Below are positions 5,817 to 60,771 of a stretch of 64,000 bases of DNA, in pieces (position 1 is the first letter of the stretch; the number at the start of each line of letters is the position of its first letter). The notes under the pieces are model-generated. The model was not told the DNA's origin. It worked only from the letters and a program-made list of their open reading frames with translations, and searched no databases. Source of the DNA: an uncultured Gammaproteobacteria bacterium (GTDB lineage Bacteria; Pseudomonadota; Gammaproteobacteria; Methylococcales; Methylomonadaceae); the NCBI GenBank assembly GCA_963777585.1, contig CAVZRB010000017.1, positions 21,227 to 85,226 of the forward strand, in the 5' to 3' direction. A program made the position numbers and the translations under genes.

Positions 5817-8800
5817 ATGAAGCTGGAAAAAATCAAACTTTCGGGTTTTAAGTCCTTTGTTGATCACGACGGTAATCCCTATTACCGGCAATTTGACGGC
5901 AATTGTCGGGCCTAATGGTTGCGGTAAATCCAATATTATTGATGCTGTGCGCTGGGTAATGGGCGAAAGTTCAGCCAAACATCTGCGCGGCGGCAATATG
6001 GCTGATGTTATATTTAACGGCTCATCCGGACGCAAACCGGTCAGTACCGCTTCGGTAGAGCTGGTTTTTGATAACTCCGAAGGCAAGCTGGGCGGCGAAT
6101 ACGCCCAATACAATACCATTGCCATCAAACGACAGGTTAGCCGTGACGGCACGTCCCTGTTTTTACTGAATGGCTCGCGCTGCCGGCGCAAGGATATTAC
6201 CGACTTGTTTTTGGGTACGGGTCTGGGTTCAAGAAGTTATGCCATTATTGAGCAAGGCACCATCTCGCGGATGGTTGAAGCGAAGCCTGAAGATTTGAGA
6301 ATTCATATCGAAGAAGCGGCCGGTATTTCCAAATATAAAGAACGGCGCAGTGAAACCGAAACCCGGATGAAGACATACCCGGGAAAATCTGGAACGGCTC
6401 GATGATTTGCGCGAAGAAGTTGACAAGCAACTCAAGCATTTGCAAAAACAGGCAGAAAAAGCCGAAAAATATACCGAGCTTAAAAAGGCAGGAACGCCAG
6501 TTCAAGCTGGAGTTGCTGGCGATGCGCTGGAATACCTATCATCAGGCCGCAAAACAGCTGGAAACAAAACTCCAGGAAGTGGCTGCCGAACATAACCGCT
6601 TGTTTGTGGAGTTACGGGATATTGATAGCGCATATCGAAGCAAAACGTGCTGAACATAAAACCCAGCAACAGCAATTAAAAACGCTCAAGGCGATTATTA
6701 CACAGGTTGTTGCAGAAGTCAGCGGTCTTGAACAGGCGATCAAGCATCATGAAGCGAGCTCATGAAGAAACCGTTGCTTGAAATCAAGCGTACGTCAGCT
6801 CCAGGCCGACCAGTCATTAAGCCAGCTTGAGACTGATTTACAGCAGCTTGGAAGAAATAAAACAGGCTTTGCTGGAAGCGGAAGAAAGCTTTGGTTATTG
6901 CCCAGGAAAGACAGGAAGAGATTTTACAGCTACAGCAGGATACCCAGCAACAAAGGAGTTCCTGGCAGGCAGAATGGGAAGCGTACCGGACTGAGAGTTC
7001 AAAATACAAGGAACAGGCTCGAAGTGCACCGGGTAAAAGCCATACAACTGGAAAACCAGAATCGCCAATTGCAAATTCGCATGGATAAATTGCAACGCGA
7101 GCGCGACTGAACTGTCGTCCAGTCAATTGCAAATTGATATTGAAACACTGGATGCCGATATCGAAATCATCGAATTTCAGCGCGATAGTCATCAAGCCCA
7201 ACTGGAACAATTGCATCATCAGATACGCGAACAGCGCCAGCAGGTAAAACAGTTCCATGATTCATTGCATACACCGCCGTTCGGAAAGTCCATAGCATAA
7301 AAGGTAAAATCACTTCGCTGGAGTTATTGCAGCAACATGCCATGGGTAAAGATAATAAACATTTGAGTACCTGGCTGGAGTCCATGAATTTGGGCAATAA
7401 CCAACGCCTGGCTGAATTTCTGGAGGTGGAGTCAGGCTGGGATACGGCCGTTGAAACGGTTCTGGGCAGCTATTTGGAAGCGATTTGTGTGGCGAGCGCC
7501 GAGCCGGTTATTCCGGGCTTGAGCAGCTTGACTAACGAATCATTAACGCTGTTTGAAACCCAAGCCAAAATCGGCTCACAGTGATACTAATCCGTGCCTA
7601 GCTCAAACGTTACTGGATAAAGTCAATGCACCGTGGGATTTAAGCGCTTTATTGACCGGTGTTTATTGTGCCGATGATAACGAATCGGCCAGAGCTTTAT
7701 CAACTCAATACAAACCCGCATGAGTCGGTTATTACCCCGGACGGCACCTGGTTCGGGCCGGGTTGGCTAAAAATCAGCCATACCAAAGACAGTAAAGCCG
7801 GCGTTTTGCAGCGTGAGAAAGAATTGCGCCTGTTAAAACACCGGCAGGAAGAATTACATGTTGAAATTGCCACATTCGAGGATCAGTTGGCAGCTGACTG
7901 AAACCGAGTTAAAAGAAGCGGAAATTTTGCGCGAGTCTATTCAGCAGCAGGACAATAAACTGGGTTCCGAGTTATCGCTAAAGAGCGCGGAATTCAGCGC
8001 GTATTCGACTCGCTGGGAACATCAGCAACGTCGTCTGGAGCAAATTGCTAATGACCTTGAAGACATCATTCGTGAAACAGGCGAAAATGCCGAGATTATT
8101 GCCGAGTGCAGATTGTTGCAGGAAGAAGCTGAAGAAGTATTAGCGCAGCAGGAACAAAACAGGCAAAGTCTGGAAACATCCAATCAGCTTTTGCAGGCAC
8201 AGCATGACAATACCGAGCGATCCGTTAATGAAGCGAGACAACAGGTTTACAGCTTAAAGGCGCAGATTGAATCGTTACGCTCTTCTGAAGCGTTCAACCA
8301 GTAAACAGATTGATCGTCTGCAAATCCAGCATCAACACTCGATTGAACGGATTGCCGATCTGGAGAAAAAACTGCAACAAACACTCACGCCGCTGGATGA
8401 GGAAAAACAGCAGTTGGAGCAACGAATACTGGATAAGGATCAACTGGAAGCCACTTTAAAAAAACAACGCCAGTTGCAGGAAGCCATCGAAGCGGAAATA
8501 ACGCGAGTTGTCCGAAGAGCATACCCGCGCACAAAGGGCGTTGGAAAAACAAAAAGAGGCCCTGGATACGCTTCGTTTTGAATTGCAGGAAAGTAAAGTT
8601 CGCCAGCAGACCGTCAATGAACAACTTAAAGAAATCGATGCGGATGCTGAACAGGTACTGAAAATCCTTGCCCGATCAGGCCGAAGAGCCACGCTGGAAA
8701 AGTAAAGTTGACGATTTATCGGCGCAAATTGAACGCTTGGGCACTATTAACCTGACCGCCATAGAAGAATACAAGTCGCAATCCGAGCGCATGAACTTTC

Positions 8801-24942: not shown

Positions 24943-25947
24943 TTATTGTTGCGGCAGAACCTTGCATGACAAGGCATGCGCAATCAGCCAAATACCGTCA
25001 CTGTTCGTGTCGGACACCGAGAAGGTGGCAGTGTGGCTTTGGACTTCTGGATCGAAATACCGGGTATACCCGTACTGACCCGGCGCGGTTGTAGTCGGCT
25101 TGTAGTCACCCGCGTAGATGTGCAGTTCCTTCATCACGTCGCTGGGTAGGTTATACGTCACCGTTACTTCCGATCCGGTCCAGTTTACCGTTAGAGTCCC
25201 GACCAATTCCCCGTTGGAAGTTTTGTTCAAACCGGCACCCTTCCAAATCTGGTAGGTCGTTTCGCCTGGGGTCGCCAGATTAATGGCCCAGCCCCACCGA
25301 TTTTTGATCAGATTGAGCGACAGCAGTTTCTCAGGGTTGCTCTTCGGATCAGTGGTGAATACATAGCTACCCTTGGCGAACGCCGTTTCGCACTCACCCA
25401 CTTGTGGCGGTACGGTAGTATCGCAGCACAGGTTGTATTCACTATAGAACCACCAACGCGGCCCGGTTCCGGGTTTGTCGCCACCCCATGCTGTCTCGTG
25501 ACTGGTATTCCCTTGTCCGTCGTCCATATTAACCTCGGCGTGGGTCGCTACATAAAGCTTCAGTGGACACGCCAGCGCAATATCCGTAATGCTTAGTGTG
25601 CTCAACGGAACTATGACCGTGTAGGAAGTTAATCCAGTTGCATCCGGTTTGTACGGAAACTGGCCGGGGACAGGAATACCTTGCTTATTCTTGGGTATAA
25701 GCGCCAAGTCAGTACCCGCCCATAGATGTAGGGTTCCAAACGTGGCACCCGGGTAGTCCAGATCGTATTTCACATAAAGATTTTCGGCGTCATTAGAGAC
25801 GGTAACTGAACCCACATCCATGTTTTGGCCAGCGGTGAGATTCCAGGTCGTGGTCCCGCATGCCGTCTCGCTGGACGCCAATGCTGATCCCCCTGTCAGG
25901 AATACCCCAACCAGTGCGATGAATCGAATTAGTTTTAAAAAAGTCAT
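24943..25947 (-). CDS. Secreted protein of unknown function with two related beta-rich domains
   Basis: Signal peptide ending ALA; duplicated motifs AG..VG.(V/L)TV, LH(L/I)(W/Y)AG, PGQ(F/Y).Y, HA, ETA(W/F), RW. Confidence 0.8.
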   Translation of the reverse strand: MTFLKLIRFIALVGVFLTGGSALASSETACGTTTWNLTAGQNMDVGSVTVSNDAENLYVKYDLDYPGATFGTLHLWAGTDLALIPKNKQGIPVPGQFPYKPDATGLTSYTVIVPLSTLSITDIALACPLKLYVATHAEVNMDDGQGNTSHETAWGGDKPGTGPRWWFYSEYNLCCDTTVPPQVGECETAFAKGSYVFTTDPKSNPEKLLSLNLIKNRWGWAINLATPGETTYQIWKGAGLNKTSNGELVGTLTVNWTGSEVTVTYNLPSDVMKELHIYAGDYKPTTTAPGQYGYTRYFDPEVQSHTATFSVSDTNSDGIWLIAHALSCKVLPQQ

Positions 25948-26129
25948 ATGTATAACCTATGTTCAATGAATCTATTAACGTATCAGGCTTTTACGCCTGA
26001 TCCAGTTTCAACCAGAAGACTTCAATCGTCTTATTTAAATTCACATAAACACTCTGATTCATGTGAACACTCTGGGTCGGTTGATTTGCTGTCTTATTCA
26101 GTCAGCAATCCCAGTTGCTAATATTGCAA

Positions 26130-26145
26130 CCAAGAACCGTGCCAA
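26130..26145 (-). promoter_or_regulatory. Sigma54 -24/-12 promoter
   Basis: Minus strand TTGGCACGGTTCTTGG: perfect -24 TGGCACG, -12 TTGG (one mismatch to TTGC); faces the 24943-25947 gene. Confidence 0.7.
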
Positions 26146-26230: not shown

Positions 26231-26293
26231 TGAGACATATGTGCGGCATCACAATTGTCTCACTATCTGTCTCATGAGACAGCATATGAGACA
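26231..26293. promoter_or_regulatory. Upstream activator (enhancer) array of five TGAGACA/TGTCTCA heptamers
   Basis: Heptamers at 26231, 26256, 26268, 26275 and 26287; 26256-26293 forms TGTCTCA-N5-TGTCTCA|TGAGACA-N5-TGAGACA. Confidence 0.7.
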
Positions 26294-26386: not shown

Positions 26387-28905
26387 TTATCGATCCTGGG
26401 AAATGTCCAGTTCAGCCAAACGCCGGTAGAAAGTGGCCCGGCTGATACCGAGCAGTTTGGCGGCTTGTTGGCGGTTGCCGCCCGTTTTTTCTAGGGCAGC
26501 CAGAATGCGGCCCCGCTCGTCTCCCGCGGCGGCCATGGGTTCGACAACGGCGGACACTGCGCCCCGGCTGAATTCGGGCGGCAGGTCCTGGGGATTGATG
26601 CGCTCGCCTTTGCTGTGGATGACCGCGTAGTCCACGCAGGCTTTCAGCTCGCGCACATTGCCCGGCCAGTCGTAATTCAGCAGGCATTGCATGGCTTCGG
26701 TACCGAACCGGGGCTGAGTCCGGCTGGAAAAGTGATGGCTCTGGCTGAGGAATGCTTCCACCAGAAGCGGAATGTCAGTTTTGCGTTCCCGAAGGGCCGG
26801 CACATAAAGCCGTGCCACTCGAAGCCGATAGAGCAAGTCCTCGCGGAAGCGGCCTTCACGGGCCTCGTTGGCCAGATCCTTGTGCGTGGCTACCAGGATC
26901 CGTACATCCACCTTGCGTGTGCGGGTTTCTCCAAGACGGGTTATTTCTTTTTCCTGCAGCACGCGCAGCAGGCTGGCCTGCATGCTCAGGGGCAGGTCGC
27001 CGATCTCGTCCAGAAACAGGGTGCCTCCGTGAGCGGCCTCGAAAAAGCCCTCCTGATCCTTGACGGCGCCCGTAAACGCGCCCTTGCGGTGGCCGAAGAG
27101 CTGGCTGGTCAGCAGCGACTCGCTAAGGCCGGCGGAGTTAACGGCGATGAAGGCCCCGTCCTTGCGCGGACTGGCCGCATGGATGCTGTGGGCGACCAGT
27201 TCCTTGCCGACACCGGTTTCGCCATCGATCAGCACCGTCCAGTCGCCGCGCGCCACATCATCGATGAGCCGGTAAAGCTCCCGCATGGGCTCTGAGTTGC
27301 CGAGCATCCGGCCGTAGCGGCTCTCTTCGATGGCTTGCCGCAGTTGATGGATTTCGGTGACGTCGTAGAGCAGCAGAATGTGGCGGTCGGGGTCCTGGGG
27401 ATCGTCGCGTACATCGCATTCCACCCAGTATTCTTTCCGATCCGCTCCCTGCCAATGCAGGGTGATTCGATGGCGTTCGGCGGGCGGGAGGTCCAGCAAC
27501 TGCTGCAATTGCAATTTCGACTGTATCCCGAAGGGCAACACCTGATCCCAGGGCCGGCCCATGGCGGTGTTGCGGTCGATGCCGGTAAAATGTTCACAGG
27601 ATTCGCTGACAAATTCCACGCGATGATCGGCGTCCAGCATCAGGGTGCCCACCCGGAATTGATTGAGGAGAACCAACAGATTTTCCTGGCTTTTCTTGAG
27701 TTCGGCCAGTGTATGCTCGGCCAGCGCCTCGGCTGCCTTGCGCTCGGAAATGTCGCGCACGATACCCTTGAACAAGCTGCCCCGAGGGAGTTTCACCTCG
27801 GTCACAGCGAGCTCGACGGGGAATACGGTTCCGTCCTTCCGCCGCGCCGATATTTCCCGGACGGTTCCGAGCATTTTGGCTCGCCCGGTTTTCAGGTAGT
27901 TCTCAAGGTAGCGGTCATGCTGGCTGTGGTACGGCTCAGGCATCAGCAGCTTGACGTTATGGCCCAGCAGTTCTTCCGGGCTGTAGCCGAACATGCGCTC
28001 CGTCGCAGGGTTGACGGATTGGATTGTTCCGGACGTGTCGATGGTGATGATGGCATCGAGGGAGCTGTTCAGAAGGGCGCGATGGCGCGCTTCCTCTTCC
28101 TTCAGCTTGTTTTCCTTTTCCCTGATCTCGGAGATATCGGCAAAAATCGCAACCGCATGGGTGACATTGCCTTGCAGGTTATAGTATCGGAGACGCGCTG
28201 AAATGGAGCGGGATGATCCGGCCATCGCGCCGAATCTCCATGTCGGTCACGGCCACCGTGTCGCCCGCCAGGGCACGCATGATCGGCATGGCTTCAAGCG
28301 GATAGGGCTGATCGGTGCCGGCCACGGTAACCTGGCAATACGCCGCCAGATCCCCAATCATCGCGCCCGGCTCGAATATTTTTCCCGTAATGGCAGCTGG
28401 CCGCTTTGTTGGCATAGAAGTTCCGGCCCTGCGCATCCAGAACCAGTACGCCGAAAGGGATGGTTTCGAGGCATTCGTAAAATTGCCGGGCTTGCCTTTG
28501 TACTTCGGCCTGGGCTTCCCTTTGCGCCGTGACATCCGTTTGGATGCCCACGTAATGGGAGAGCTGGCCCTGGTCATCGAAAACCGGAGCCAGGCGCAGT
28601 TCATTCCAGAACAACGTCCCGTCCTTGCGGTAATTCCTGAGGACGACCGCCACTTCCCGGCGCTCGTCCAGCGCCCGACGGAGGTGATCCAAGTCGGGCT
28701 GGTCATGGTCCTCGCCTTGAAGGAACCGGCAGTTCCGGCCCAGGATTTCGTCCTTCGCGTAGCCCGTCATGACTTCAAATGCCCGGTTCACATAGACGAG
28801 AGGCGTATCGACCTGTGTCGCGTCAGCTACAGTGATGCCACAACTGGCGGAGTCCAGCGCTTTGACGATCCAGTCTGGAATTTCTTGGTGGTTAGTTACG
28901 TGCAC
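26387..28905 (-). CDS. Sigma54 enhancer-binding protein: LOV-PAS-hemePAS-PAS-AAA+-Fis HTH (two frameshifts join ORFs 28294-28905, 28179-28706 and 26387-28225)
   Basis: LOV GRNCRFLQG/NYRKDG/FWNEL/GIQ; FixL-like LMPEPYHSQHDRY; GETGVGKE, GAFTGA, LFLDEIG, FREDLLYRL, WPGNVREL; HTH AAKLLGISRATFYRRL. Confidence 0.88.
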
Positions 28906-29476
28906 AATGACTCCATTTTTTCATCAACTCAGGTTGGCAAAAAGAAACTATATTTCTGTCCTTTGGTTGACGATTCTAGTTCCCGGAAAATTCCAGTGCT
29001 GTTTTAATGCCTGAAAAATAAGTCCAGACTCTACTGGCCGTTTACGGCCAAGTACGGATATTCGGTATACGTTTTATCCAGCGAGCCGAACGAGTCTGCG
29101 ATATTTGAAACAAAACGGCATCCAATATGTACCACTTCCAGCGTTCGTTTTACAAGTTTACGGTCACATAAATACTAAAAAACAATGCGATGATGAATTT
29201 ACAGGGTCAATTTTGACTTTGTTTGCCGGTTAATATTCGATGTAAGTAACCCATTTCCTCCCTGCAGGGCTTTTCATGTAACCTGGTTTTGTTCACACAT
29301 AATATTTATGCAACAAAGCCAGTTTGACTAATGAGGAAACTGCTGAATACAGCGTCCACTGAGATTCTTGTTATCAAACCTTTACCCCATCACAAATTTA
29401 TTCCCGCTGACTTATTTGGCTGAAGGGGGATAAGTGGTCAACAAGGCCATGCCGCATTGATAACAACGATAGGCCG

Positions 29477-31250
29477 TTATCCCTTATTGCCTGCAGCCAT
29501 TTCCAGCAGCCGTTCTACACCAACCGGCTCTTCCTTAAGCAGCGGAACAACCGCATAACGTTGGGCATGCAACGTGGCGACGGCATTGATCTCGCGCAGT
29601 TCGTTGGCGGCGCGCTGGCGCAGCAAGGGCGATTTGGAAGTGGCTGCGGCAACACTGGTATTGATGATCCAGGCCCAGGGTTCGATGCCGGCACGTCGCA
29701 AGTCGGCTTGCAGGTTCGCGGCCTCCAGAACCGGCGTGGTTTCGGCCAGTGTGACAATCAGCACCTTGGTCTGTTTAGGGTCCTGCAATTGCATCATCGG
29801 CGTGGTGTAGTGCAGCCCGGAGCTGCCCATCTGGCGCGACACTTCACGGTGATAAGCGCCGGTCGCATCCAGCAGCAGCAAGGTGTGTCCGGTGGGCGCG
29901 GTATCCATCACCACGAACTTCTTGCCGGCTTCGCGGATGATGCGGGAAAACGCCTGGAATACGGCAATTTCCTCGGTACAGGGCGAGCGCAGGTCTTCTT
30001 CCAGCAGCGCACGGCCTTGCGCATCGAGCTTTGCGCCTTTGGTCTCCAAAACATGTTGACGGTAGCGCTCGGTTTCGGCTGCCGGGTCGATGCGGCTTAC
30101 GGTCAGGTTGTCGAGAGCGCCATTCAGCGTTTCGGTCAAGTGTGCCGCCGGGTCGGAGGTGGTGAGATGCACCGGCAGTCCGCGATGCGCCAGCTCGACG
30201 GCGACCGCGGCCGCCAGCGTGGTTTTGCCGACGCCGCCTTTGCCCATCAGCATCACCAGGCCATGACCGTCTTTGGCAATGTCATCGACCAGTTCGGAAA
30301 GACTGGGTTCGTCGAGCTCGATGGGGGAATCCACCCTGACGTGCCCTTGCACAGGTGTGTCAACCAGCAGTTGGCGCAGGGCATCCAGTCCGACCAGATT
30401 GAATGGCTTAAGCATGACCTCATCACAGGGCAGTCTCTTCAACACTTCGGGAATGTCGTTGAGGGCGGATCTGCTCACGTTCGTGAATGGCGGCGACCAA
30501 CGGATCATTGTCGGCTTCAGTGCGAGGCAGGATGCCGTTGATGACCAGATACTGATGCTGAAAGCCAATCGCCGCCAGTTCTTCATGCGTGCGGGCGACT
30601 TCGCGCAAGGTGGCTTGCTGGGCACGGGCCACCAGAATCAGCCGGGTACGGGTCGCATCGGCCAGCGCATCCACTGCCGCCTTGTATTGCTCCCGCTGCT
30701 TTTCCAGGCCGGCCAACGGGCCGAGACAGGACGCATCGCCTTTGCCTTCTTCAAGAAAGCCGCTCCAGGCGCCGGGCAGTTGCAACAGGCGAATGGTATG
30801 GCCGGTGGGTGCCGTATCGAAAACGATGTGATCGTAGCCGGCGGTCAGCGCCGAATCGGTCAGCAGCGCGGTGAATTCGTCAAACGCCGCAATTTCGGTG
30901 GTGCAGGCGCCGGACAGTTGTTCTTCGATGCCTTTCACCACCGCTTCCGGCAACACGCCGCGCACCGGGCCGACGATGCGGTCGCGGTAGGCCTGGGCCG
31001 CGGCTTGCGGATCGATTTCCAGCGCCGCCAAACCCGGCACGGCCGGAATGGCGGTGATCTGGTTGCCGATGCTGATGCCGAACACCTGGCCGACGTTGGA
31101 GGCCGGGTCGGTGCTGACCAGCAGCACCTGCTGCCCGGCATCCGCCAGCTGTATCGCCGTGGCGCAGGCAATCGAGGTCTTGCCTACGCCGCCCTTGCCG
31201 GTAAAAAACAGAAAGCGCGGCGGCTGGTCGAGAAATTTCATGTCAGTCAT
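29477..31250 (-). CDS. arsA: Arsenical pump-driving ATPase (frameshift near 30470)
   Basis: Two GKGGVGKT P-loops, two DTAPTGHT motifs, SGACTTE, SPCTEE. Confidence 0.93.
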
Positions 31251-31272
31251 GATGACATCTCCAAAGGATTGT

Positions 31273-31630
31273 TTAACAGCAGCTGCTGCCGCCACAGCAA
31301 CCGGATTCTGGCTTTTTCTTCACGCTTGGGCAATCCCGGCCCAACGTGCCAGTTCGTCGCGATTCGGATAGCGCCCGCCAACGCGACTTCGCCATCGACC
31401 AGAATCAACGGCAGCGCTTCCGCGCCGGAACGCTCCAGAAAACCTTTCACGACCGGGTTTTCGGCAAAAGCCATCGGTTGCTGGGCCAGATTGAAGCGCT
31501 CGATCTGCGCGCCGTTTTGCTTGGCCCAATCGACATCGGCAGAAAAGCCGACCAATTGTTGATCGACGTCCACACCGCAGACGCCGGTGCTGCAACACAA
31601 GGCGGGGTCAAATACTTGAATGCTTGTCAT
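31273..31630 (-). CDS. arsD: Arsenic metallochaperone (frameshift near 3' end)
   Basis: FDPALCCSTGVCG, RFNLAQQP, LPLILVDG, C-terminal CC pairs. Confidence 0.92.
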
Positions 31631-47135: not shown

Positions 47136-48032
47136 TCAGTGATCCCGCTGAATGATATAAAGCGACAAGTCACGCAACAAGTCGGCTTCGCTGCCGAAAA
47201 TGCTCAGGCTGTCCAGCGCTTGCTCGTGCAGTTCCTGCGCCTTTTGTTTGGCTCCGGCCAGACCTAAAAGAGCAGGGTAGGTGGGTTTGTCGTTATCCTT
47301 GTCTTTGCCCTGAGTTTTGCCCAGCGTTGCGGTATCGCTTTCTTCGTCGAGAATGTCATCTTTAACCTGAAACGATAAGCCGATGCACTTGGCGTAGTGG
47401 TCCAGTTTTTTGGCGACATTCGGGTCTATATCCGCTTTCGCCAGAGTAGCCATATTGACGCTGGCACGAATCAACGCGCCGGTCTTATGGATGTGCATGT
47501 TTTCCAGTTCAGGCAGGGTCAATCTTGTTCCTACCGATTCCAGGTCGATGGCCTGACCGCCTACCATGCCCTGAGAGCCACTGGCTTTGGTTAACGCGGT
47601 GATCATTTTCAGGCGGCCTTCAGCGGTTGCCGTAATGCTGGGATCATTGGCCAGTATTTCAAAAGCCAAAGCCTGCAGGGCATCGCCGGTTAAAATGGCG
47701 GTTGCTTCATCAAAAGCCACATGGCAGGTGGCTTTGCCGCGTCTGAGATCATCATCATCCATCGCTGGAAGATCATCATGTATCAAAGAATAAACGTGTA
47801 TGAATTCGACAGCGCAAGCCGGGCCATCCAGTGCTTCCGGTGCAATGCCCAGTGTTTTTCCAGTGCAATAGGTGAGCATCGGGCGCATACGTTTGCCGCC
47901 ATCCAGTACGCTGTAACGCATTGCCCGGTGCAGTTTTTGCGGCAGTATGTTTTCACCGGGCAGACGAGCCTCCAAAGCTCTTTCCACACGGTTTTGACAA
48001 AAATCAATATATTCTTTTAACGCATTACTCAT
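47136..48032 (-). CDS. ispA: Farnesyl diphosphate synthase
   Basis: [40 protein letters not shown]; start MSNAL overlaps the xseB stop. Confidence 0.93.
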
Positions 48033-48258
48033 CAGTAAATGGCTCCAGGGTTTGAGTGCCGTTTTTTTCAATTAGAATTTGAACTTTCTGCTCTGCTTCC
48101 TGCAAGGCTTTTTGACAGGTTCGGGTAAGATTAACCCCGCGTTCAAACGACTTTAATGATTCTTCAAGTGAAATGTCACCCTGTTCAAGTTGGCTAACCA
48201 ATTGCTCAAGTTCGGCGAGTGAATCTTCGAATAAAGTCGTGGTTTTCTTTTTCGGCAT
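48025..48258 (-). CDS. xseB: Exodeoxyribonuclease VII small subunit
   Basis: [26 protein letters not shown]; canonical xseB-ispA pair. Confidence 0.93.
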
Positions 48259-48341
48259 GAGATAAAAATATTTTTAGTGATACGATGTATAGATAAACCG
48301 GAACATTATATATGAAATTGGATAGTGAGTGATTAGGAAGT

Positions 48342-50234
48342 ATGAGTAACGAATATAACGCGTCGGCAATTGAGGTTTTAAGCGGACTTGAGCCGGTAAG
48401 AAAGCGTCCCGGCATGTACACGGACACCACCCGACCCAACCATCTGGTGCAGGAAGTCGTTGATAACAGTGTTGATGAGGCGATGGCAGGCCACGCCACG
48501 GCAATTGATGTGGTTTTGTATAAGGATGGCTCGGTGCTGGTCAGCGATAATGGCCGCGGCATGCCGGTCGATATTCATCCCGAGCAAGGCATTCCCGGCG
48601 TCGAGGTGATTCTGACGCAGCTGCATGCGGGCGGAAAGTTTTCCAATAAAAACTACCAGTTTTCCGGCGGTCTGCATGGTGTGGGGGTCTCTGTCGTTAA
48701 CGCATTGTCGGCAAAGCTGGAGATAGAGGTTAAGAGGAACGGCAAGGTTTATTACATGGAGTATGCCGATGGCGAAAAGCAGACTGAACTGGCTGAGACC
48801 GGAACGGTCGGCAAGAATAATACCGGAACGGCTATCCGGTTCTGGCCGAATGAAAAATATTTTGATTCCAATAAGGTATCGGTTTTAAAGCTGAAACACG
48901 TCTTGCGCGCCAAGGCGGTTTTATGCCCCGGCTTGAAAATTTCGCTGAAAATCGATCAAACCGACGAAGAATATTTCTGGTGTTATCAGAATGGCCTCAA
49001 GGAATATTTGCTCGACCGCATCGGCGATATTGACTATTGTCCGGAACAGCCTTTTATGGGCAACATGGCTGCCAACCATGAAGCCGTTGAATGGGGCATC
49101 GTCTGGGCTATTGAAAATCCCGCGGAAGTGCTGACTGAAAGCTACGTTAACCTGGTGCCGACTGCGCAAGGCGGAACCCACGTCAACGGCTTGCGTGCAG
49201 GTCTGACCGAAGCGATGCGCGAGTTTTGCGATATCAGGAATATTCTGCCGCGCGGCGTTAAGGTCGCACCGGAAGATGTCTGGGAAAATTGCCATTTTGT
49301 GCTGTCGGTCAAGTTGGAAGATCCGCAGTTTTCAGGGCAAACCAAGGAACGACTCAGTTCCCGCGAATGCGTGGCCTTTGTGTCCGGTGTGGCGAAAGAC
49401 AGCTTCAGTCTGTGGTTAAACCAGAATCCCGCGGAAGGCGAGAAAATCGCTGAAATCATCATTTCCAGCGCGCAAAAGCGGTTGCGTTCCAATAAAAAAA
49501 TAATTCGCAAGAAAATCACCTCAGGCCCCGCATTGCCGGGCAAACTGGCCGATTGTTCGGCGCAGGATATCGCCCGTACCGAATTATTTCTGGTGGAAGG
49601 GGATTCGGCGGGTGGTTCGGCCAAACAAGCCAGGGAGCGGGATTTCCAGGCCATTATGCCGTTGCGCGGCAAGATTCTTAATACCTGGGAAGTCGAGTCC
49701 AATCAGGTGATGGCGTCGCAGGAAGTCCATGATATTGCTGTCGCCCTGGGCATAGAGCCGGGTTCCAGCGATTTGCAGAACCTGCGTTACGGCAAGGTGT
49801 GCATTTTGGCGGATGCCGACTCGGACGGCAATCACATCGCCACCCTGATCTGTGCCTTGTTTTACCAGCATTTCAATGCGCTGGTTGTAGCAGGTCACGT
49901 CTTTGTCGCCATGCCGCCCTTGTATCGGATTGATGTCGGCAAACGGGTGTTTTATGCCTTGGATGAATCCGAGCGCCAAGGTGTTCTGGATCGAATTAAA
50001 GCCGAGAACCTCAAAGGACAGATTAATGTGCAGCGCTTTAAAGGTCTGGGTGAAATGAATCCGAGTCAGCTTCGGGAAACCACCATGAACCCGGATACCC
50101 GCAGACTGGTTCAGTTAACGGTTGAGGAGAATGACGATACCACCGGGCAACTTGATCTGCTGCTGGCCAAGAAACGTTCGCAGGACCGGAAAATCTGGCT
50201 GGAAACCAAAGGGAATCTGGCGGATATAGCCTGA
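48342..50234 (+). CDS. parE: DNA topoisomerase IV subunit B
   Basis: GLEPVRKRPGMYTD, EVVDNSVDE, SGGLHGVG, EGDSAGG, PLRGKILN, ADADSDG. Confidence 0.95.
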   Translation: MSNEYNASAIEVLSGLEPVRKRPGMYTDTTRPNHLVQEVVDNSVDEAMAGHATAIDVVLYKDGSVLVSDNGRGMPVDIHPEQGIPGVEVILTQLHAGGKFSNKNYQFSGGLHGVGVSVVNALSAKLEIEVKRNGKVYYMEYADGEKQTELAETGTVGKNNTGTAIRFWPNEKYFDSNKVSVLKLKHVLRAKAVLCPGLKISLKIDQTDEEYFWCYQNGLKEYLLDRIGDIDYCPEQPFMGNMAANHEAVEWGIVWAIENPAEVLTESYVNLVPTAQGGTHVNGLRAGLTEAMREFCDIRNILPRGVKVAPEDVWENCHFVLSVKLEDPQFSGQTKERLSSRECVAFVSGVAKDSFSLWLNQNPAEGEKIAEIIISSAQKRLRSNKKIIRKKITSGPALPGKLADCSAQDIARTELFLVEGDSAGGSAKQARERDFQAIMPLRGKILNTWEVESNQVMASQEVHDIAVALGIEPGSSDLQNLRYGKVCILADADSDGNHIATLICALFYQHFNALVVAGHVFVAMPPLYRIDVGKRVFYALDESERQGVLDRIKAENLKGQINVQRFKGLGEMNPSQLRETTMNPDTRRLVQLTVEENDDTTGQLDLLLAKKRSQDRKIWLETKGNLADIA

Positions 50235-50731
50235 TGAGTAAACAGGAAAAATCATTAACCATGACGGTGCTGATGACGCCGGACATGGCGAATTTTACCG
50301 GCCATGTGCATGGCGGTTCCTTGTTGAAATTGCTTGATCAGGTGGCTTATGCCTGTGCGGCAAAATATTCCAAAAGTTATGTGGTAACAGCATCGCTGGA
50401 TCAGGTTTTCTTTAAAAAGCATGTGAATGTTGGCGAGCTGGTTACTTTTTATGCCAACGTCAATTATGTCGGCCGCACATCAATGGAAATTGGCGTGAAA
50501 GTGGTCGCCGAGAATCTAAGAACGGATGAAAAAAGGCATACTAATTCCTGTTACTTTACGATGGTCGCTGTTGATGAACAGGGGCAGCCTGTTGAAGTCC
50601 CAAGATTGGAGCTAAATACCGAAGTGGAAAAAAAATTATTTGAAGCGGCAGAAATGCGCAAAAAAATGCGCCAGGAAATCCTGGAAAAGAATCGCGCATT
50701 GCACGTTGATATACCAAAGGATGAGTTGTAA
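50234..50731 (+). CDS. Hotdog-fold acyl-CoA thioesterase
   Basis: [32 protein letters not shown]. Confidence 0.88.
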
Positions 50732-50733
50732 TT

Positions 50734-52971
50734 GTGAAAGTGAAAGTACAAGAAAATTTTGAACAACTGCCATTAAAGGATTTTGCTGAAAAAGCCTACC
50801 TGGATTATTCCATGTATGTGATTTTGGACAGAGCCTTGCCGCATATCGCGGATGGCTTAAAACCGGTGCAGCGGCGTATTGTTTATGCGATGTCAGAGCT
50901 GGGCTTGACTTCGGTTGCCAAGTTTAAAAAATCGGCCAGAACCGTCGGTGACGTGCTGGGTAAATATCATCCGCACGGTGACTCTGCCTGCTATGAAGCC
51001 ATGGTGCTGATGGCGCAGGATTTTTCTTACCGTTATCCATTGGTTGACGGGCAGGGCAACTGGGGTTCTCCGGACGACCCTAAATCCTTTGCCGCCATGC
51101 GTTATACCGAATCGCGTTTGACCGGTTATGCTCAAACCTTGTTAAGTGAATTGGGACAGGGCACGGTTGAGTGGTCGGATAATTTTGACGGCACCTTAAA
51201 AGAGCCGGAACTATTGCCGGCAAGACTGCCGAATATACTGCTGAACGGCACCATGGGTATCGCTGTCGGCATGGCAACCGATATACCGCCGCACAATTTG
51301 CGGGAAGTCGCTCATGCCTGCATACAGCTATTGGATGAACCAAACAGTACGCTGGAAACCCTTTTCACCCATATCAAAGGCCCCGATTACCCGACTGATG
51401 CCGAAATCATCACCTCGGCTGATGAAATCCAGAAAATGTATATCAGCGGCGGCGGCTCGATAAAAATGCGTGCCAAATATGAGCAGGAAGACGGCAATAT
51501 CGTCATCACTGCGCTGCCGCATCAGGTTTCCGGCGCTAAGTTGATGGAGCAGATCGCTGCGCAAATGCTGGCGAAGAAACTGCCGATGATTGAAGATTTA
51601 CGGGATGAATCGGATCATGAAAATCCAACCCGCTTGTTGGTAATTCCAAGGTCAAAACGGATTGATGTGGATGAGGTGATGTCGCATCTGTTTGCCACCA
51701 CCGATCTTGAGAAAAGCTATCGCGTCAACATGAACATGATAGGTATGGATGGCAGGCCCAAGGTTAAAGGCCTCAGAGACATACTGGTTGAATGGTTGTC
51801 GTTCCGTACCGAGACTGTGCGACGGCGCTTGCAATATCGTCTGGACAAGGTGCTGGCAAGGCTGCATATTCTGGATGGCTTGCTGATTGCCTATCTGAAT
51901 ATCGATGAAGTCATCGCCATTATTCGCAGTGAGGATCGCCCTAAACCGGTGCTGATGGAGCGCTTCGGTATCACCGACATTCAGGCTGAAGCGATACTGG
52001 AGTTAAAGTTAAGAAATCTGGCCAAGCTTGAAGAAATGAAAATTCGCGGCGAGCAGGATGAACTGGAACTGGAGCGTGCCGCGCTGGAAAAAACCCTGGG
52101 TTCCAAAGCCCTGTTAAATCGGCTGATCAGAAAAGAAATCGAGCGCGATGCAGAGAAATACGGCGATGATCGCCGCTCGCCGATTATTGCGAGAGAGGCA
52201 GCACAGGCATTGGATACAACCGCGTTAATAAGCAACGAGCCATTAACTGTTATCCTGTCGGATAAAGGCTGGATAAGGGCGGCGAAAGGTCATGATATTG
52301 ATGTCGCAAGTCTAAGCTACCGCTCCGGCGACAGCTTTCTGGACGCGGTTAAATGTAGGACGACCCAGCCGGTTTACATACTCGACTCCACCGGACGGGC
52401 TTACAGTACCTCTGCTCACGACCTGCCGTCGGCCAGAAGTCAGGGCGAACCGTTAACCGGGCGTCTCAATCCACCGGCAGGGTCATTATTCCTCCATCTT
52501 TTGGCAGGCCAGCCGGATGACTGGTATTTGCTGGCCAGCAATGCGGGCTATGGTTTCAGGGTTCAGCTTAAGGAATTATTGAGCAAAAACAAGGCCGGTA
52601 AACAGCTTATCTCGCTGCCGGATGGCGCAAAAGTCTTAAAGCCTACTCCTATCCACAGCGAATCAGATTTGCTCGCGGTTGCTACCTTGCAAGGTCGCCT
52701 GCTGATTTTCCCCGTGGCTGATTTACCCGCCTTGTTGAAAGGCAAAGGTAACAAGCTGATACAGATCCCGTCAGCTGATCTGGTCGCAGGGAAAGATTGC
52801 GTTGTCGCGATGGTGTCGATGCCGGAAAACAGCCAGTTAAAAGTCATATCCGGCAAACGCCATATACGCCTGGCTGGATCAGATATAGAGCATTATTCCG
52901 GCAGTCGCGCAAAAAGAGGTTCTGCCTTACCCAGAGGCTTTCAGCGGGTTGATGAGTTGGAGTATGAGTAG
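50734..52971 (+). CDS. parC: DNA topoisomerase IV subunit A
   Basis: [38 protein letters not shown]. Confidence 0.95.
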
Positions 52972-56632: not shown

Positions 56633-57111
56633 ACAACACCTCGCTTAAGGAATAATAAACAGCCATCAAAGTCGAGAAAACGGCATTTGCTAAAAAACGC
56701 CAGGGGTAAGGAATAAAATTTTGAATTGTATAATTAACCAACAGCGAGAAGGGAGCGATTTGCACAAAAGAATCCAGGCCAATACCGATTAAACTCCACT
56801 GTATAGATGCAAACTGCCCCGAAAAACATTTAATAAAGGCAATGTGGCGGGCAATCCATAATGGATTAAAAAAAGCCTGCGCTATTAGAGCTCGTTTTAT
56901 TCCGTTCACAATACCCTGTTTTTTAAAATGGCGTTCTATCCAGGCGAAATAACAGGGAATCTCGATTGCATAAAGGGTTCCGCCCAAAAACATCATGCCG
57001 ACCAAACGCGAAATTTGAAATTCATCGGTCAGCAAGGCTGCGCAACTATCCCCTAAATGCATAAACAACAGCGCCGTGAAAGCTGTCGCGCTTGGTTAAA
57101 AGAGGCTTCAT
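56625..57111 (-). CDS. Mpv17/PMP22-like four-TM membrane protein (frameshift near 57057; true start overlaps the xdhB stop, ATGA)
   Basis: Reconstructed MKPLLTKRDSFHGAVVYALGDSCAALL...RLVGMMFLGG...KRALIAQAFFNP...NYTIQNFIPYPWRFLANAVFS..MAVYYSL follows the Mpv17/PMP22 motif order. Confidence 0.6.
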
Positions 57112-59361
57112 TTTTTATACAATGCCAGCAACACTTTCTCCGGCGTCATGGGCGCGCAGAAGTCGGGTTGCCAGTTCGGGTTGAAGGCTTGTATGGCTTT
57201 AACCAGTGCAAAGTAAGCGCCTATTCCATACATCAAAGGCGGTTCGCCGATGGCTTTGGAATGCATGACAGCAGGTGATTCTTCATGTGATAAAAGCTCG
57301 ATTTCAATCTCAGGCGCGAAATAAAGGTCCGGTATTTTGTAATTGGTCAGGTTATCGGTTTTTAAGCGGCCTTGTTGATCATAAATAATTTCTTCCATCG
57401 TCATCCAGCCCAGGCCTTGAACCACGCCGCCTTCAATTTGACCGCGGTCTACCATCGGAGTCAGGCTTTTACCCATATCATGCACCAGGCTGACCCGGTC
57501 GATGCTATAAATGCCGCGCAGGCAATCGACAGTCACTTCCACCGAGGCACAACCGTAGACATGGTAAGCGAACGGGTTGCCTTTTTCCTGGCTCCGGTCA
57601 AAAAACACGCCGGGGGTTGCGTAGTGGGCATGGGCTGATAGCGCCGTTCTGGATAGATAAGCCTGGCTGATCAATTTTCTCCAGTCAATCGCCGTGGCTT
57701 CGCCGTTTAAGTAGACTTTTTCCTGTTTGAAAGTGATTTGTTCAGCGTTGGCATCGTTGCCTAACAGTTTGGCGGCCACCGCTTTCAGGTTTTGCAGAAT
57801 TTGCTGGCAGGCCAGTAACGTGGCCGCGCCGTTAAGATCGGAACCCACACTGGCAGCAGTCGGCGACATATTGGCAATGCGTGAGGTGTTGGTGCTTTCT
57901 ACCTTGACGCGGGCTTCATCAATGGCAAACGTTACTGCGGCGATATTTCGGATTTTTTCTTTAACCCCTTGCCCCATTTCAACGGCCCCCATACTGACGC
58001 TGACCGAGCCGTCCGTATAAATATGCACCAGCGCTCCGGCTTGGTTGAGAAAGGTTGCGGTAAAAGAAATGCCAAAACAGATCGGCATCAGCGCCAAGGC
58101 TTTTTTGCTTAAAGGATGCTGGGCATTGTAGGCGTCGATAGCTTGTTGCCGGTCTTGAATGGCATAGTGTGTTTGCACAGTCTGCCAGCTGGTTTGCGCA
58201 TGACATCGCTGTGTTTGCATGCCATAAGGGAAATGATCGCCTTCTTTGAGCAAGTTTTTTTGCTGAATCTCGGCAGGGTCAAGATGCATGGTCTGAGCGG
58301 CTTTAAAAATAGCCGATTCCAATACGAACATGGCTTGCGGGCCGCCGAAGCCTCGAAAAGCCGTATTCGGCGGCAGATGCGTCCGACAGCTGTTGGCGGT
58401 GGCGCGAACATTGGGAATGAAATAACTGTTGCCGGTGTGAAACAGCGTCCGTTCCAGTATGGCCAGCGACAAGATCGGCAACCGCGCCGGCATTTTGAAA
58501 AAATTCGACTTGATAGGCCAGGATTTTACCGGTTTGGTCCAGGCCGATTTTGAAGTCGGCATCATAGGGATGGCGTTTGCCGGTCAGACGCATGTCTTCG
58601 TCACGGTTTAATTTTATTTTGACCGGTTTTTTAAGCAGAAAAGCGGCCAGCGCAACCAAAGCCGCCCATAGCGTGGCTTGTTCTTCCTTGCCGCCAAAGC
58701 CGCCGCCCAGGCGCAAAACGTCGACTTCAATCCGGTGCATCGGGCAGTTCAGCACTCTGGCACAGGCCCGTTGCACCAAGCCCGGCGACTGTGTGGCAGA
58801 AAACAACTTTAAACCGTTATTTTCCAGCGGAATGGCTAACGCGGTTTGGGTTTCCAGATAGACATGCTCCGCAGCTCCCGTACTGGCCGAGCCTTCAATG
58901 ATAAAGTCACACGCCTGCCAGGCCTTATCGACATCGCCCAGCGAGAAAATCCGCGGAGGGGCGATATGCAAGCCTTGAGCATGCGCCGTTCTGGCATCGA
59001 AAACAGCCGGTAATTCCTGGTATTCAATGTTGACCAATGCGGCCGCTTGCCGGGCGATGGTTTCGGTTTCGGCGATGACCAGCGCGATGGGTTGGCCCTG
59101 ATACATGGCTATCTGATCGGCCAGCAATACTTCTTCGGCTTCGATATTGCCGATGTTGTTAATCCCGGGAATATCCTGAGCCGATAAAATTTGCACGACG
59201 CCGGGACAAGCCATTGCGGCACGGGTATCGATGGCTAAAATCTTGCCGTGGGCGATGGTCGATACGACCGGAAAAGCATGGAGAGTCCCTTGCGGCAGCG
59301 GGATGTCGTCGGTAAATGTCGATGCACCCTGAGCGTGCAGCTCAATGTCGTTAATCTGCAT
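57108..59361 (-). CDS. xdhB: Xanthine dehydrogenase molybdopterin-binding subunit (frameshift near 58470)
   Basis: HVYLET, RLGGGFGGKE, GKRH, AFRGFGGPQ, FGISF, EMGQG, SPTAAS, SKAIGEPP. Confidence 0.92.
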
Positions 59362-60771
59362 TGAACATCTCTCCTTTAAAAGATTCAGGAAATAGTTTAA
59401 CAAAATGGGCGTAAAGCAATTGCTGCAACAACAGGCGTTTGTATTGGGCTGAACCGCGAGTATCTGAAATCGGCGCTATTTCACTTTGGGCAATTTCGGC
59501 GGCTGTTTTGACGGTTTCCAGGCACACCTTTTGGCCGACTAAATAGGCGCAGGTTTTGGCGAGATAAAGCGGAAAAGGCGCGACACCGCCGGCAGACAAT
59601 ATGCACTTTGGTTATTTTTCCAGCCTGTTCCTGAATAAGCATCGCTGAATTGACTGCGGCAATATCCAGATGCATGCGTTTGCTGACTTTTTCATAGCTA
59701 AACCGGTCAACTTGAGTTGGGATTTCGAACCTGATTTCCAATAGGCGTTCGCCCGGTTTTAAGTCGATTTGTTTATAGCCCTGAAAGAACTGCTGCAATG
59801 GGACTGTGCGCGTTTGAGAGCCTGATAGTAAGGTTAATTGGGCATCCAGCGCTAAAAAGAATACGGCCAAATCAGCAATGGGAGAGGCATTAATCAAATT
59901 GCCGCCCAACGTTGCACGCTGGCGAATCGGCGCCGAGCAGATCAATTTAAAATCTTCTGCCAGCCGGGGAAAACAGGATTGCAGCAATGGCGAGGTTCTG
60001 ATTTGCTCGATGGTGGTCAGCGCATTAATGATGCAATCACTGTTTTCCTTGCGAATAAGGGGGTGTAGTGACTCGTTTGATAAAAAATGCAGCGGTTGCG
60101 AGTGCAGCTTTTCAGGCTTTTGCACAAAAAGATCCGTGCCGCCGGCAATGAGTACGGCATTATCAAGCGGCTCGGAAGTTTTGCCAGCTGAATATTGGCT
60201 TAGCATCTCCGGCACAGTGGCAAAATAAGCGGGCAGAATTTGCCAGGCAATTAAATCTTCAATTCTGCGTTCAAGCGGCGAAGCCGACAGATCGAATTGC
60301 AGGCAAAGCGCACTGACCGCCCGTTTAATGCCGGCATACCCGGTACAACGGCATAAGTTACCCGCTATCGAATCCAGTGCGGCGCTTTCGTCCGACAGTG
60401 TGCTGTTAAGAAAAAAGCCGGTCAACGCCATGACCAGGCCGGGCGTACAAAACCCGCATTGAATGGCCCCGTTTTCCACCAACGCACGTTGAATCGGATT
60501 GAGTTGCTCGCTGTTTAGACCCTCTATCGTCACCACATGATGACCTGAAATCGCACCTACCGGCAGCAAGCAGGCATTGACTGCCTGATAGCGGATGCGA
60601 TTGTTAATGAGTTCGCCCACCAGTATCTGGCAAGCGCCGCAATCGCCTTCACGGCAGGCTTCCTTGGTGCCGGTCAAGCCCCGGTTATGGCGAATAATAT
60701 CCAGTAAAAGTTCGTCCGGGGGAACGTTTTCTTCGACACTATTGCGGTTTAATAAGAATCTGATAGGTCAT
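59351..60771 (-). CDS. xdhA: Xanthine dehydrogenase small subunit (2x[2Fe-2S] + FAD; frameshifted)
   Basis: GTKEACREGDCGAC, QCGFCTPG, GNLCRCTGY, AGGTDL, ATLGGN.INASP. Confidence 0.92.

What the first reader, a model, noticed from the sequence alone, without database searches (positions are those of the whole stretch)
26387..28905. Activator architecture: canonical LOV photosensor and FixL-like heme PAS in one sigma54 EBP
The ORF track splits this into three pieces, but they join into about 840 aa. PAS1 has every photoactive LOV residue: GRNCRFLQG (encoded about 28714-28740), NYRKDG, FWNEL and GIQ. PAS3 aligns with the FixL heme domain: LMPEPYHSQHDRY (proximal His) and LGTVREI (distal Arg equivalent). 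PAS2 and PAS4 have no recognisable ligand. The AAA+ domain keeps GAFTGA, with an atypical TSQLFGH in place of ESELFGH. LOV domains are usually coupled to kinases, GGDEF/EAL, STAS or HTH outputs; a LOV plus heme-PAS sigma54 activator is an unusual combination and a possible optogenetic part.
Basis: partly seen in the sequence, partly recalled or inferred. Interest (0 to 1): 0.78.

Follow-up and report, generated by a model that had tools for sequence, protein, structure and literature searches.

The report
LOV plus heme-PAS sigma54 activator gene
This is one gene for a transcription activator that carries both a blue-light sensor and a FixL-type oxygen/heme sensor. It looks broken here only because the draft assembly probably has two spurious extra bases, and intact copies exist in other Methylobacter genomes but have never been studied.

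Summary
On the minus strand, 26387-28905 is one gene read in three frames. Two single extra bases, at 28394 and 28182, split it. Three close relatives lack both bases and encode an intact 838-aa protein.

The assembly is a 71%-complete MAG with genome-wide gene fragmentation. Frame shifts run 384:143 towards +1 insertions, and three other genes in the window are split the same way. The breaks are therefore most likely assembly errors (about 80%).

The intact protein reads LOV, PAS, FixL-like PAS, PAS, sigma54 AAA+ and Fis-type HTH.
- The LOV domain has the adduct Cys and all flavin-contact residues. Its best solved relatives are photoactive LOV proteins (E 1e-37).
- PAS3 matches FixL heme domains (E 1.7e-29). 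It keeps the proximal His and distal Arg, but FixL Arg206 is Asn.

Directly downstream lie a TGTCTCA-repeat enhancer and a -24/-12 promoter, conserved in seven of eight related loci. They precede a gene for a secreted protein of unknown fold.

Canonical LOV-sigma54 activators appear confined to a small Methylobacter group. The M. marinus ortholog was listed in a 2014 LOV census, but its architecture was never filled in. Photocycle, heme binding and light/O2 control of transcription are untested.

The parts
26387..28905 (-). Whole activator gene (GTG start at 28905, stop at 26387-26389). It reads as 838 aa once two extra bases are removed.
   Evidence: GGAG lies 5 nt before the GTG.
28531..28863 (-). 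LOV domain (residues about 15-125). Cys59 codon is 28729-28731. Also present: N58, R60, Q63, R76, N91, N101 and Q122.
   Evidence: Pfam PAS_9 E 1.6e-24. PDB LOV proteins E 1e-37. Motif positions.
28462..28530 (-). J-alpha-like helical linker from LOV to PAS2 (residues 126-148).
   Evidence: AF2 model of the intact ortholog shows helix 126-148.
28394..28394 (-). First extra base (AGCT[G]CCATT). It shifts the frame inside PAS2.
   Evidence: Absent in L010, G007:C304 and L031.
28133..28458 (-). PAS2 (residues about 150-257), with no recognisable cofactor signature.
   Evidence: Pfam PAS_9 E 1e-10 in the intact ortholog. No PDB hit below E 0.03.
28182..28182 (-). Second extra base (ATACT[A]TAAC). 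It shifts the frame at the end of PAS2.
   Evidence: Absent in L010, G007:C304 and L031.
27749..28057 (-). PAS3, a FixL-type putative heme domain. His codon is 27917-27919, matching BjFixL His200. Arg codon is 27857-27859, matching Arg220.
   Evidence: PDB FixL 1d06 E 1.7e-29, 1dp6 E 5.6e-26, DosP E 1e-14. Positions.
27359..27652 (-). PAS4, ligand unknown. It is conserved across the wider family of heme-PAS activators.
   Evidence: Pfam PAS_4 E 2.8e-7. No PDB relative. Alignment.
26789..27295 (-). Sigma54-interaction AAA+ domain with Walker A (GETGVGKE), SQLFGH, GAFTGA (27065-27082) and Walker B (DEIGD).
   Evidence: Pfam PF00158 E 5.6e-67. Motifs.
26411..26791 (-). AAA+ lid domain and the C-terminal Fis-type helix-turn-helix.
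   Evidence: PF25601 E 1e-23 and PF02954 E 3.8e-14.
26231..26293 (-). Putative enhancer: five TGTCTCA/TGAGACA heptamers around the palindrome GTCTCATGAGAC.
   Evidence: Five of the eight heptamers in the 64-kb window fall here. The arrangement is conserved in seven of the eight related loci aligned or scanned.
26129..26144 (-). Sigma54-type promoter TGGCACGGTTCTTGGT, with a canonical -24 element and an atypical -12 (GG instead of GC).
   Evidence: It sits at the same position in orthologous loci, four of which have a GC at -12.
24943..25947 (-). Probable target gene: a 334-aa signal-peptide protein of a widespread unnamed family.
   Evidence: Same order of gene, enhancer, promoter and target in L010, G007 and L031, and partly in L024. 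No Pfam family. Homologs in several phyla.

Best explanation
The stretch is one gene for a one-component sigma54 enhancer-binding protein of a Methylobacter-related methanotroph. The two frame breaks are most likely single-base insertion errors of the assembly.

The intact protein is built, from the N-terminus, as follows:
1. a LOV domain that should bind FMN and form the Cys59 adduct in blue light;
2. a PAS domain of unknown ligand;
3. a FixL-type PAS that should hold heme on His329 (intact-ortholog numbering) and bind O2 or another diatomic gas near the distal Arg;
4. a fourth PAS domain;
5. the AAA+ motor with GAFTGA;
6. a Fis-type HTH.

Long helices join the sensor domains. Inferred mechanism: light and gas or redox state alter the sensor dimer through these helices. 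That change permits or blocks assembly of the ATPase ring, as in other activators with N-terminal sensor domains.

The HTH would bind the TGTCTCA repeats about 100-160 nt past its own stop codon. The ATPase would then open the sigma54 promoter about 140 nt further on, which drives a secreted protein gene.

Shown here: the domain identities, the key residues, the intact relatives, and the conserved enhancer and promoter. Inferred: cofactor binding, the sign of regulation, and how the two inputs combine.
For: Gene unity:
- Alignment to intact 833-852-aa homologs.
- Exactly two 1-nt insertions relative to three relatives.
- Substitutions favour third codon positions (21/14/44), as expected for a gene under selection.

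Assembly error:
- The genome is a 2.68-Mb, 23-contig MAG, 71% complete.
- Mean ORF length is 205 aa against 281 aa in control loci. Overlapping different-frame ORF pairs on the same strand number 19.6 per 100 kb against 5 in controls.
- The direction of shift is 384 (+1) to 143 (-1) genome-wide and 9:1 in the window.
- arsA, a xanthine-dehydrogenase subunit and adenine deaminase are also split in the window.
- Against L031 there are ten 1-nt insertions and three deletions over 6.9 kb.

Domains. The AF2 model shows four PAS folds joined by helices 126-148, 258-279, 386-413 and 516-529.

Sigma54 system:
- rpoN is present in the genome.
- The enhancer and the -24/-12 promoter keep their positions in seven of eight loci, even where the downstream gene is unrelated.
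Against: - No reads were available, so real frameshifts cannot be excluded.
- The two insertions lie only 212 nt apart. A 4.46-kb stretch elsewhere in the window shows no indel against a relative, so any errors are patchy.
- The enhancer in this window also carries 1-nt spacing changes that the other loci lack. That would equally fit real decay of the whole system.
- FixL Arg206 is Asn here.
- The -12 element is TTGG, not TTGC.
- Two orthologs have lost the LOV Cys and one lacks PAS3 altogether. Neither input is therefore indispensable to the family.
- No experiment exists on any member.
Confidence: 0.6

Rival explanations
1. The gene is a true pseudogene in this strain. Two real +1 frameshifts inactivated the activator, and the enhancer is decaying with it.
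For: - There are two breaks within 212 nt, neither in a homopolymer run.
- The enhancer has extra bases at spacer positions that are constant in the other loci.
- The gene is patchily distributed in the family and therefore dispensable.
- Other parts of the window show no indels against a relative.
Against: - Gene fragmentation is genome-wide with a strong +1 bias, which real mutation does not predict.
- Unrelated metabolic genes in the same window are split in the same direction.
- The substitution pattern still shows purifying selection.
- The target gene is intact.
Confidence: 0.18
2. The gene is an intact activator, but the sensors do not report light and O2. The LOV-type flavin domain would act as a redox sensor in dark sediment or water, or as a structural dimerisation module. 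PAS3 would bind heme as a redox, NO or CO sensor, or bind no heme at all.
For: - Flavin PAS domains such as NifL and MmoS sense redox rather than light (established knowledge).
- Arg206 of FixL is not conserved.
- Some orthologs replace the adduct Cys with Gly or Pro.
- Many methanotroph habitats are dim.
Against: - The adduct Cys and the full set of LOV flavin contacts are kept in 13 of 15 orthologs that include the N-terminus.
- Identity to proven photoactive LOV proteins is about 50%.
- The His and distal Arg of O2-sensing FixL are kept.
Confidence: 0.2
3. The three frames are decoded as one protein by programmed ribosomal frameshifting or transcriptional slippage.
For: Only that the three frames join cleanly.
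Against: - Neither site has a slippery sequence or homopolymer.
- Three close relatives encode the same protein in one frame without the extra bases.
- The same kind of break occurs all over the genome.
Confidence: 0.01

Closest known systems
Methylobacter marinus WP_020158844.1 (846 aa) and the other intact orthologs (838-852 aa)
   Same: Same domain order, LOV Cys, FixL-type His and Arg, GAFTGA and HTH. Identity is 82-96%. The same enhancer and sigma54 promoter follow the gene.
   Different: These are uninterrupted. The M. marinus group drives an unrelated 251-306-aa secreted protein and has a canonical TTGC at -12. Databases name them only 'PAS domain S-box protein'. The 2014 LOV census lists this accession with the placeholder 'CONTROLLO' in place of an architecture (PMC4844311 supplement).
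Short LOV proteins of Pseudomonas (PpSB1-LOV type, PDB 3sw1, 7a6p) and B. subtilis YtvA (2pr5)
   Same: LOV core with NCRFLQ, the flavin-contact Arg, Asn and Gln residues, and a C-terminal helical extension. E 1e-37 to 1e-32.
   Different: Those have no effector domain, or a STAS domain. Here the LOV heads a four-PAS array that ends in a sigma54 AAA+ motor.
FixL heme-PAS domain (S. meliloti 1d06, B. japonicum 1dp6)
   Same: About 45% identity over 116 residues. The proximal His, distal Arg220 equivalent, Tyr203/Tyr207 and Leu236 equivalents are kept.
   Different: Arg206 is Asn, and His214 and Ile215 are Lys and Met. The output is an AAA+ activator rather than a histidine kinase.
NorR, and other sensor-domain sigma54 activators such as DmpR/XylR and NifA
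   Same: One polypeptide joins an N-terminal sensor to the GAFTGA AAA+ motor and an HTH. NorR senses a gas directly (established knowledge).
   Different: NorR uses a non-heme iron GAF domain. No characterised activator is known to me with a LOV or FixL-type heme PAS input, and none turned up in the literature searches.
EL222 (LOV-HTH light-activated transcription factor)
   Same: A one-component LOV transcription factor (PDB 8a5r hit, E 1.9e-25).
   Different: EL222 acts by light-driven dimerisation of a LuxR-type HTH at sigma70 promoters. It has no ATPase, no sigma54 and no second sensor.

Membership tests
LOV photosensor domain | PAS fold of the PAS_9 type | tested here: met
   PF13426 E 1.6e-24, residues 24-127. 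The AF2 model gives a PAS fold for residues 11-124.
LOV photosensor domain | GXNCRFLQ motif with the adduct-forming cysteine | tested here: met
   GRNCRFLQG at residues 56-64, Cys59 codon 28729-28731. The Cys is kept in 13 of 15 orthologs that include the N-terminus.
LOV photosensor domain | Flavin-contact residues (YtvA R63, Q66, R79, N94, N104, Q123 equivalents) | tested here: met
   R60, Q63, R76, N91, N101 and Q122 are present. The mapping to YtvA numbering comes from established knowledge, not from a tool.
LOV photosensor domain | Closest solved relatives are photoactive LOV proteins | tested here: met
   7a6p, 3sw1, 2pr5, phototropin and aureochrome, E 1e-37 to 1e-25.
LOV photosensor domain | FMN binding and the reversible 450-to-390 nm photocycle | not testable with these tools
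   Needs purified protein.
FixL-type heme-PAS sensor | Sequence homology to the FixL heme domain | tested here: met
   1d06 E 1.7e-29, 1dp6 E 5.6e-26. DosP is next at E 1e-14.
FixL-type heme-PAS sensor | Proximal histidine on the F helix (BjFixL His200) | tested here: met
   The His in SQHDRY aligns with it, codon 27917-27919. It matches in 15 of the 18 ortholog clusters; P0018 lacks PAS3, and P0007 and P0009 did not match the pattern and were not examined.
FixL-type heme-PAS sensor | Distal arginine that contacts bound O2 (BjFixL Arg220) | tested here: met
   The Arg in GTVRE aligns with it, codon 27857-27859.
FixL-type heme-PAS sensor | Propionate-binding arginine (BjFixL Arg206) | tested here: not met
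   Asn in LENY. Some wider-family members keep the Arg. This lowers confidence in an identical switching mechanism, not in heme binding.
FixL-type heme-PAS sensor | Heme binding and a ligand-dependent signal | not testable with these tools
   Needs spectroscopy.
Bacterial sigma54 enhancer-binding protein | Sigma54-interaction AAA+ domain with Walker A and Walker B | tested here: met
   PF00158 E 5.6e-67. GETGVGKE and DEIGD are present.
Bacterial sigma54 enhancer-binding protein | GAFTGA loop | tested here: met
   Residues 382-387 of the 612-aa ORF, coordinates 27065-27082.
Bacterial sigma54 enhancer-binding protein | C-terminal DNA-binding HTH | tested here: met
   PF02954 E 3.8e-14.
Bacterial sigma54 enhancer-binding protein | Sigma54 gene in the same genome | tested here: met
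   PF04552 match at 225 bits on contig C7. Its open frame is only 278 aa and may itself be split.
Bacterial sigma54 enhancer-binding protein | Cognate enhancer plus -24/-12 promoter | tested here: met
   A heptamer array and TGGCAC-N5-TTGG/TTGC sit at conserved positions in seven of eight loci. The -12 GC is replaced by GG in this window.
Bacterial sigma54 enhancer-binding protein | Uninterrupted reading frame in this record | tested here: not met
   Two 1-nt insertions, judged to be probable assembly errors.

The most novel reading that the evidence does not exclude
This would be a natural single-protein, two-input switch. A LOV blue-light sensor and a FixL-type heme O2 sensor would jointly gate a sigma54 AAA+ activator. 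The switch would travel as a portable cassette with its own enhancer and promoter, placed in front of different secreted-protein genes. That would make it the first photoreceptor shown to act directly on sigma54 transcription. It would also give oxic-anoxic-interface methanotrophs a way to read light together with oxygen.
Probability: 0.4. Interest if true: 0.75.

Novelty: new variant of a known kind. Interest (0 to 1): 0.6.

Why it matters
Sigma54 promoters are silent without their activator. A light-gated activator would therefore be a tight optogenetic switch of a kind not yet available. The cassette of gene, enhancer and promoter is compact and already defined by comparison across genomes.

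Biologically, Methylobacter lives at oxic-anoxic boundaries of lakes and wetlands, where light-driven oxygen production is thought to fuel methane oxidation (general knowledge, not checked here). A regulator that reads both light and O2 would be a concrete handle on that link.

The wider family of FixL-type heme-PAS sigma54 activators also appears unstudied. In one search, 42 of the 120 best hits carry the heme-pocket motif.

For annotation, the public record splits this gene and names only a 612-aa fragment. That is probably an assembly artefact.

Tried and rejected
- **Programmed frameshifting.** Rejected: there is no slippery site, and relatives lack the extra bases.
- **Uniform error rate.** Not supported: 4.46 kb at 48000-52461 shows no indel against G007, so errors are patchy.
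- **Window-wide sigma54 promoter scan.** It gave fewer matches than chance (29 against 43 expected). Only the positionally conserved site at 26129-26144 is used.
- **TGTCTCA count in the whole window.** Not above chance (8 against 5.2). The signal lies in the clustering and in conservation across loci.
- **Ligand clues for PAS2 and PAS4.** PDB sequence searches found nothing significant.
- **Function of the 334-aa target.**
  - No Pfam family matched.
  - Foldseek gave TM-scores of 0.2 or less.
  - VIA-align gave a best Z of 7.4 to generic beta-sandwich modules, which is within the tool's noise range.
- **Homology between the two kinds of downstream gene.** None detected.
- **A second LOV-sigma54 lineage.** The 715-aa P0082/P0111 type has an NCRF motif but lacks both flavin-binding Asn, so it is not counted as canonical LOV.
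- **Literature.** Searches for a described LOV or heme-PAS sigma54 activator found none. Two LOV censuses could not be opened: Glantz 2016 and a J Bacteriol 2009 census, whose PMC id was given from memory. An earlier mention therefore cannot be excluded.
- **Exact look-up of the window's own 612-aa product.** Nothing was returned.

Full report
**What is in the sequence.** Three minus-strand ORFs lie in three different frames: 28294-28905 (203 aa), 28179-28706 (only its last ~70 residues are real) and 26387-28225 (612 aa). The first is a PAS_9 domain. The last carries two PAS domains, a sigma54-interaction domain (E 5.6e-67), an AAA+ lid and a Fis-type HTH. A search with the 612-aa piece returned uninterrupted proteins of 833-852 aa at 66-96% identity. 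These include a 838-aa protein from a Methylobacter MAG and the 846-aa M. marinus protein. In the alignment the three window pieces tile one such protein end to end. GRNCRFLQG lies exactly at 28714-28740.

**The two breaks.** Nucleotide alignment to the 96.8%-identical intact gene (L010) and to a second relative (G007) shows exactly two differences in length. One is an extra G at 28394 (AGCT[G]CCATT). The other is an extra A at 28182 (ATACT[A]TAAC). A third intact copy, on a 118-kb contig with the same downstream gene order, also lacks both. Neither site is a homopolymer or slippery sequence. Substitutions between the window and L010 fall 21/14/44 on codon positions 1/2/3, the pattern of a gene under selection.

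**Artefact or pseudogene.**
- The genome is a 2.68-Mb MAG in 23 contigs, 71% complete.
- In the same window arsA is split in two, a xanthine-dehydrogenase molybdenum subunit in two, and adenine deaminase in three, with Pfam matches continuing across the breaks.
- Genome-wide, a greedy ORF cover gives a mean ORF of 205 aa. The figure is 281 aa in 80 kb taken from complete genomes of the same family.
- Overlapping different-frame ORF pairs on the same strand number 19.6 per 100 kb, against 5 in those controls.
- The direction of those shifts is strongly biased: 384 of the +1 kind against 143 of the -1 kind genome-wide, and 9:1 in the window.
- Over 6.9 kb against L031 the window has ten 1-nt insertions and three 1-nt deletions.

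A systematic excess of single-base insertions across unrelated genes is what an unpolished assembly produces. It is not what mutation produces. I put about 80% on assembly error.

The case is not closed. A 4.46-kb stretch elsewhere shows no indel against a relative. The two breaks are close together. The enhancer downstream also carries spacing changes. Real decay of the locus keeps about 18%.

**The LOV domain.** Against all PDB sequences, the best matches are Pseudomonas short LOV proteins (7a6p E 4.6e-37, 3sw1), YF1/YtvA, phototropin, aureochrome and EL222. The adduct cysteine is Cys59. The residues that hold the flavin in YtvA have their equivalents here: R60, Q63, R76, N91, N101 and Q122 (the numbering map rests on established knowledge). 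Among orthologs that include the N-terminus, 13 of 15 keep the Cys, one has Gly and one has Pro.

**The heme-type PAS.** PAS3 matches the FixL heme domains of S. meliloti (1d06, E 1.7e-29) and B. japonicum (1dp6, E 5.6e-26), and then DosP (E 1e-14). In those alignments the His of SQHDRY falls on the proximal His. The Arg of GTVRE falls on the distal Arg that contacts bound O2 in FixL. Two Tyr and the distal Leu are kept as well. Arg206 of B. japonicum FixL, which holds a heme propionate, is Asn here. Heme binding is therefore likely, but the switching details may differ.

**PAS2, PAS4 and the overall build.** Both score as PAS domains in the intact ortholog but have no significant solved relative. 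An AlphaFold model of the intact ortholog has a mean pLDDT of 80. It shows four PAS folds linked by long helices at 126-148, 258-279, 386-413 and 516-529, followed by the AAA+ domain, lid and HTH.

**The motor.** Walker A, Walker B, GAFTGA and the HTH are intact. The genome has an rpoN gene.

**What it controls.** About 100-160 nt past the stop codon lie five TGTCTCA/TGAGACA heptamers around the palindrome GTCTCATGAGAC (26231-26293). An AT-rich tract follows, and then TGGCACGGTTCTTGGT at 26129-26144. The same layout, at the same distances, follows the orthologous gene in seven of eight loci from several genera. Four of them have a GC at -12 (TTGC).

The gene behind the promoter always encodes a signal-peptide protein, but not always the same one. 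The window's lineage has a 334-aa type. The M. marinus group has an unrelated 251-306-aa type. The conserved unit is thus activator, enhancer and promoter. The 334-aa protein belongs to a widespread unnamed family found in several phyla. Its model is two beta-sandwich domains with no convincing solved relative.

**How rare, and how new.**
- In a sample of 251 species genomes of the family, full-length orthologs were found in seven others, in three genera. One more turned up in the window's own genus.
- Among the 120 best longer proteins that share the LOV domain, those with a sigma54 domain are this ortholog group plus one 715-aa type. That type lacks both flavin-binding Asn residues.
- The C-terminal core (FixL-type PAS, PAS4, AAA+, HTH) is much more widespread, usually behind a GAF domain. 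The heme-pocket motif occurs in 42 of the 120 best activator hits.
- LOV and a FixL-type motif also co-occur in at least one histidine kinase.
- Literature searches found no described LOV-linked or heme-PAS-linked sigma54 activator.
- The supplement of a 2014 LOV census lists the M. marinus ortholog WP_020158844.1, 846 aa, with 'CONTROLLO' in the architecture column. That accession is the protein found here.

The protein has therefore been seen as a LOV protein, but not described. Two other censuses could not be read.

**Verdict.** The split into three ORFs is most likely an artefact. The thing itself is a new variant of known kinds (LOV photoreceptors, FixL-type heme sensors and sensor-domain sigma54 activators) with a well-defined promoter cassette. 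Nothing about cofactors, light or oxygen has been tested.

Noticed in passing
window 29477-31295, 57108-59403 and 60851-62421 (all minus strand): arsA, a xanthine-dehydrogenase molybdenum subunit and adenine deaminase are each split into two or three overlapping ORFs. Pfam matches continue across the breaks, and all shifts run in the +1 direction.
   Followed up: partly
G000 contig C4, locus L030 about 6040-6620 (minus strand): A ~95-nt remnant of the activator's 3' end carries an in-frame stop. A near-identical copy of the enhancer, the TGGCACGGTTCTTGGT promoter and the 5' leader follows. After that comes only a 31-aa hydrophobic ORF before a convergent 532-aa multi-pass membrane protein gene (family not checked). 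G007 has the same remnant. The regulatory cassette has been duplicated, which may mean a second target or a relic.
   Followed up: partly
window 24943-25947 (minus strand): The 334-aa secreted protein belongs to a well-conserved family (50-60% identity) with no Pfam model. Members occur in Acidobacteriota, Cyanobacteria, Bacteroidota and Alphaproteobacteria. The AF2 model is two beta-sandwich domains (pLDDT 84.5) with no clear PDB match.
   Followed up: partly
L021 9495-10415; L022 9685-10440: In the M. marinus group the same enhancer and promoter drive a different, unnamed 251-306-aa secreted protein with conserved Cys and Trp residues. The two copies compared are 58% identical to each other. 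This protein is unrelated to the window's target.
   Followed up: partly
proteins P0018, P0016 and P0014 (orthologs from metagenomes): These are natural variants. P0018 (712 aa) lacks the heme-type PAS3 entirely. P0016 has Gly and P0014 has Pro in place of the LOV adduct Cys.
   Followed up: no
window 26387-31500: The activator gene and the arsA gene upstream have about 60% G+C, in a genome of about 47%. The genes upstream of the activator differ between this window (arsA) and its closest relatives (a histidine kinase and response regulators). Both points suggest recent transfer or rearrangement.
   Followed up: partly
G000 contig C7 76410-76880: The rpoN DNA-binding domain lies in an open frame of only 278 aa, so rpoN may also be split in this assembly.
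   Followed up: no
window 26231-26293: The enhancer in this window has single extra bases in spacers whose length is constant in the other loci aligned. These may be further assembly errors or real changes in half-site spacing.
   Followed up: partly
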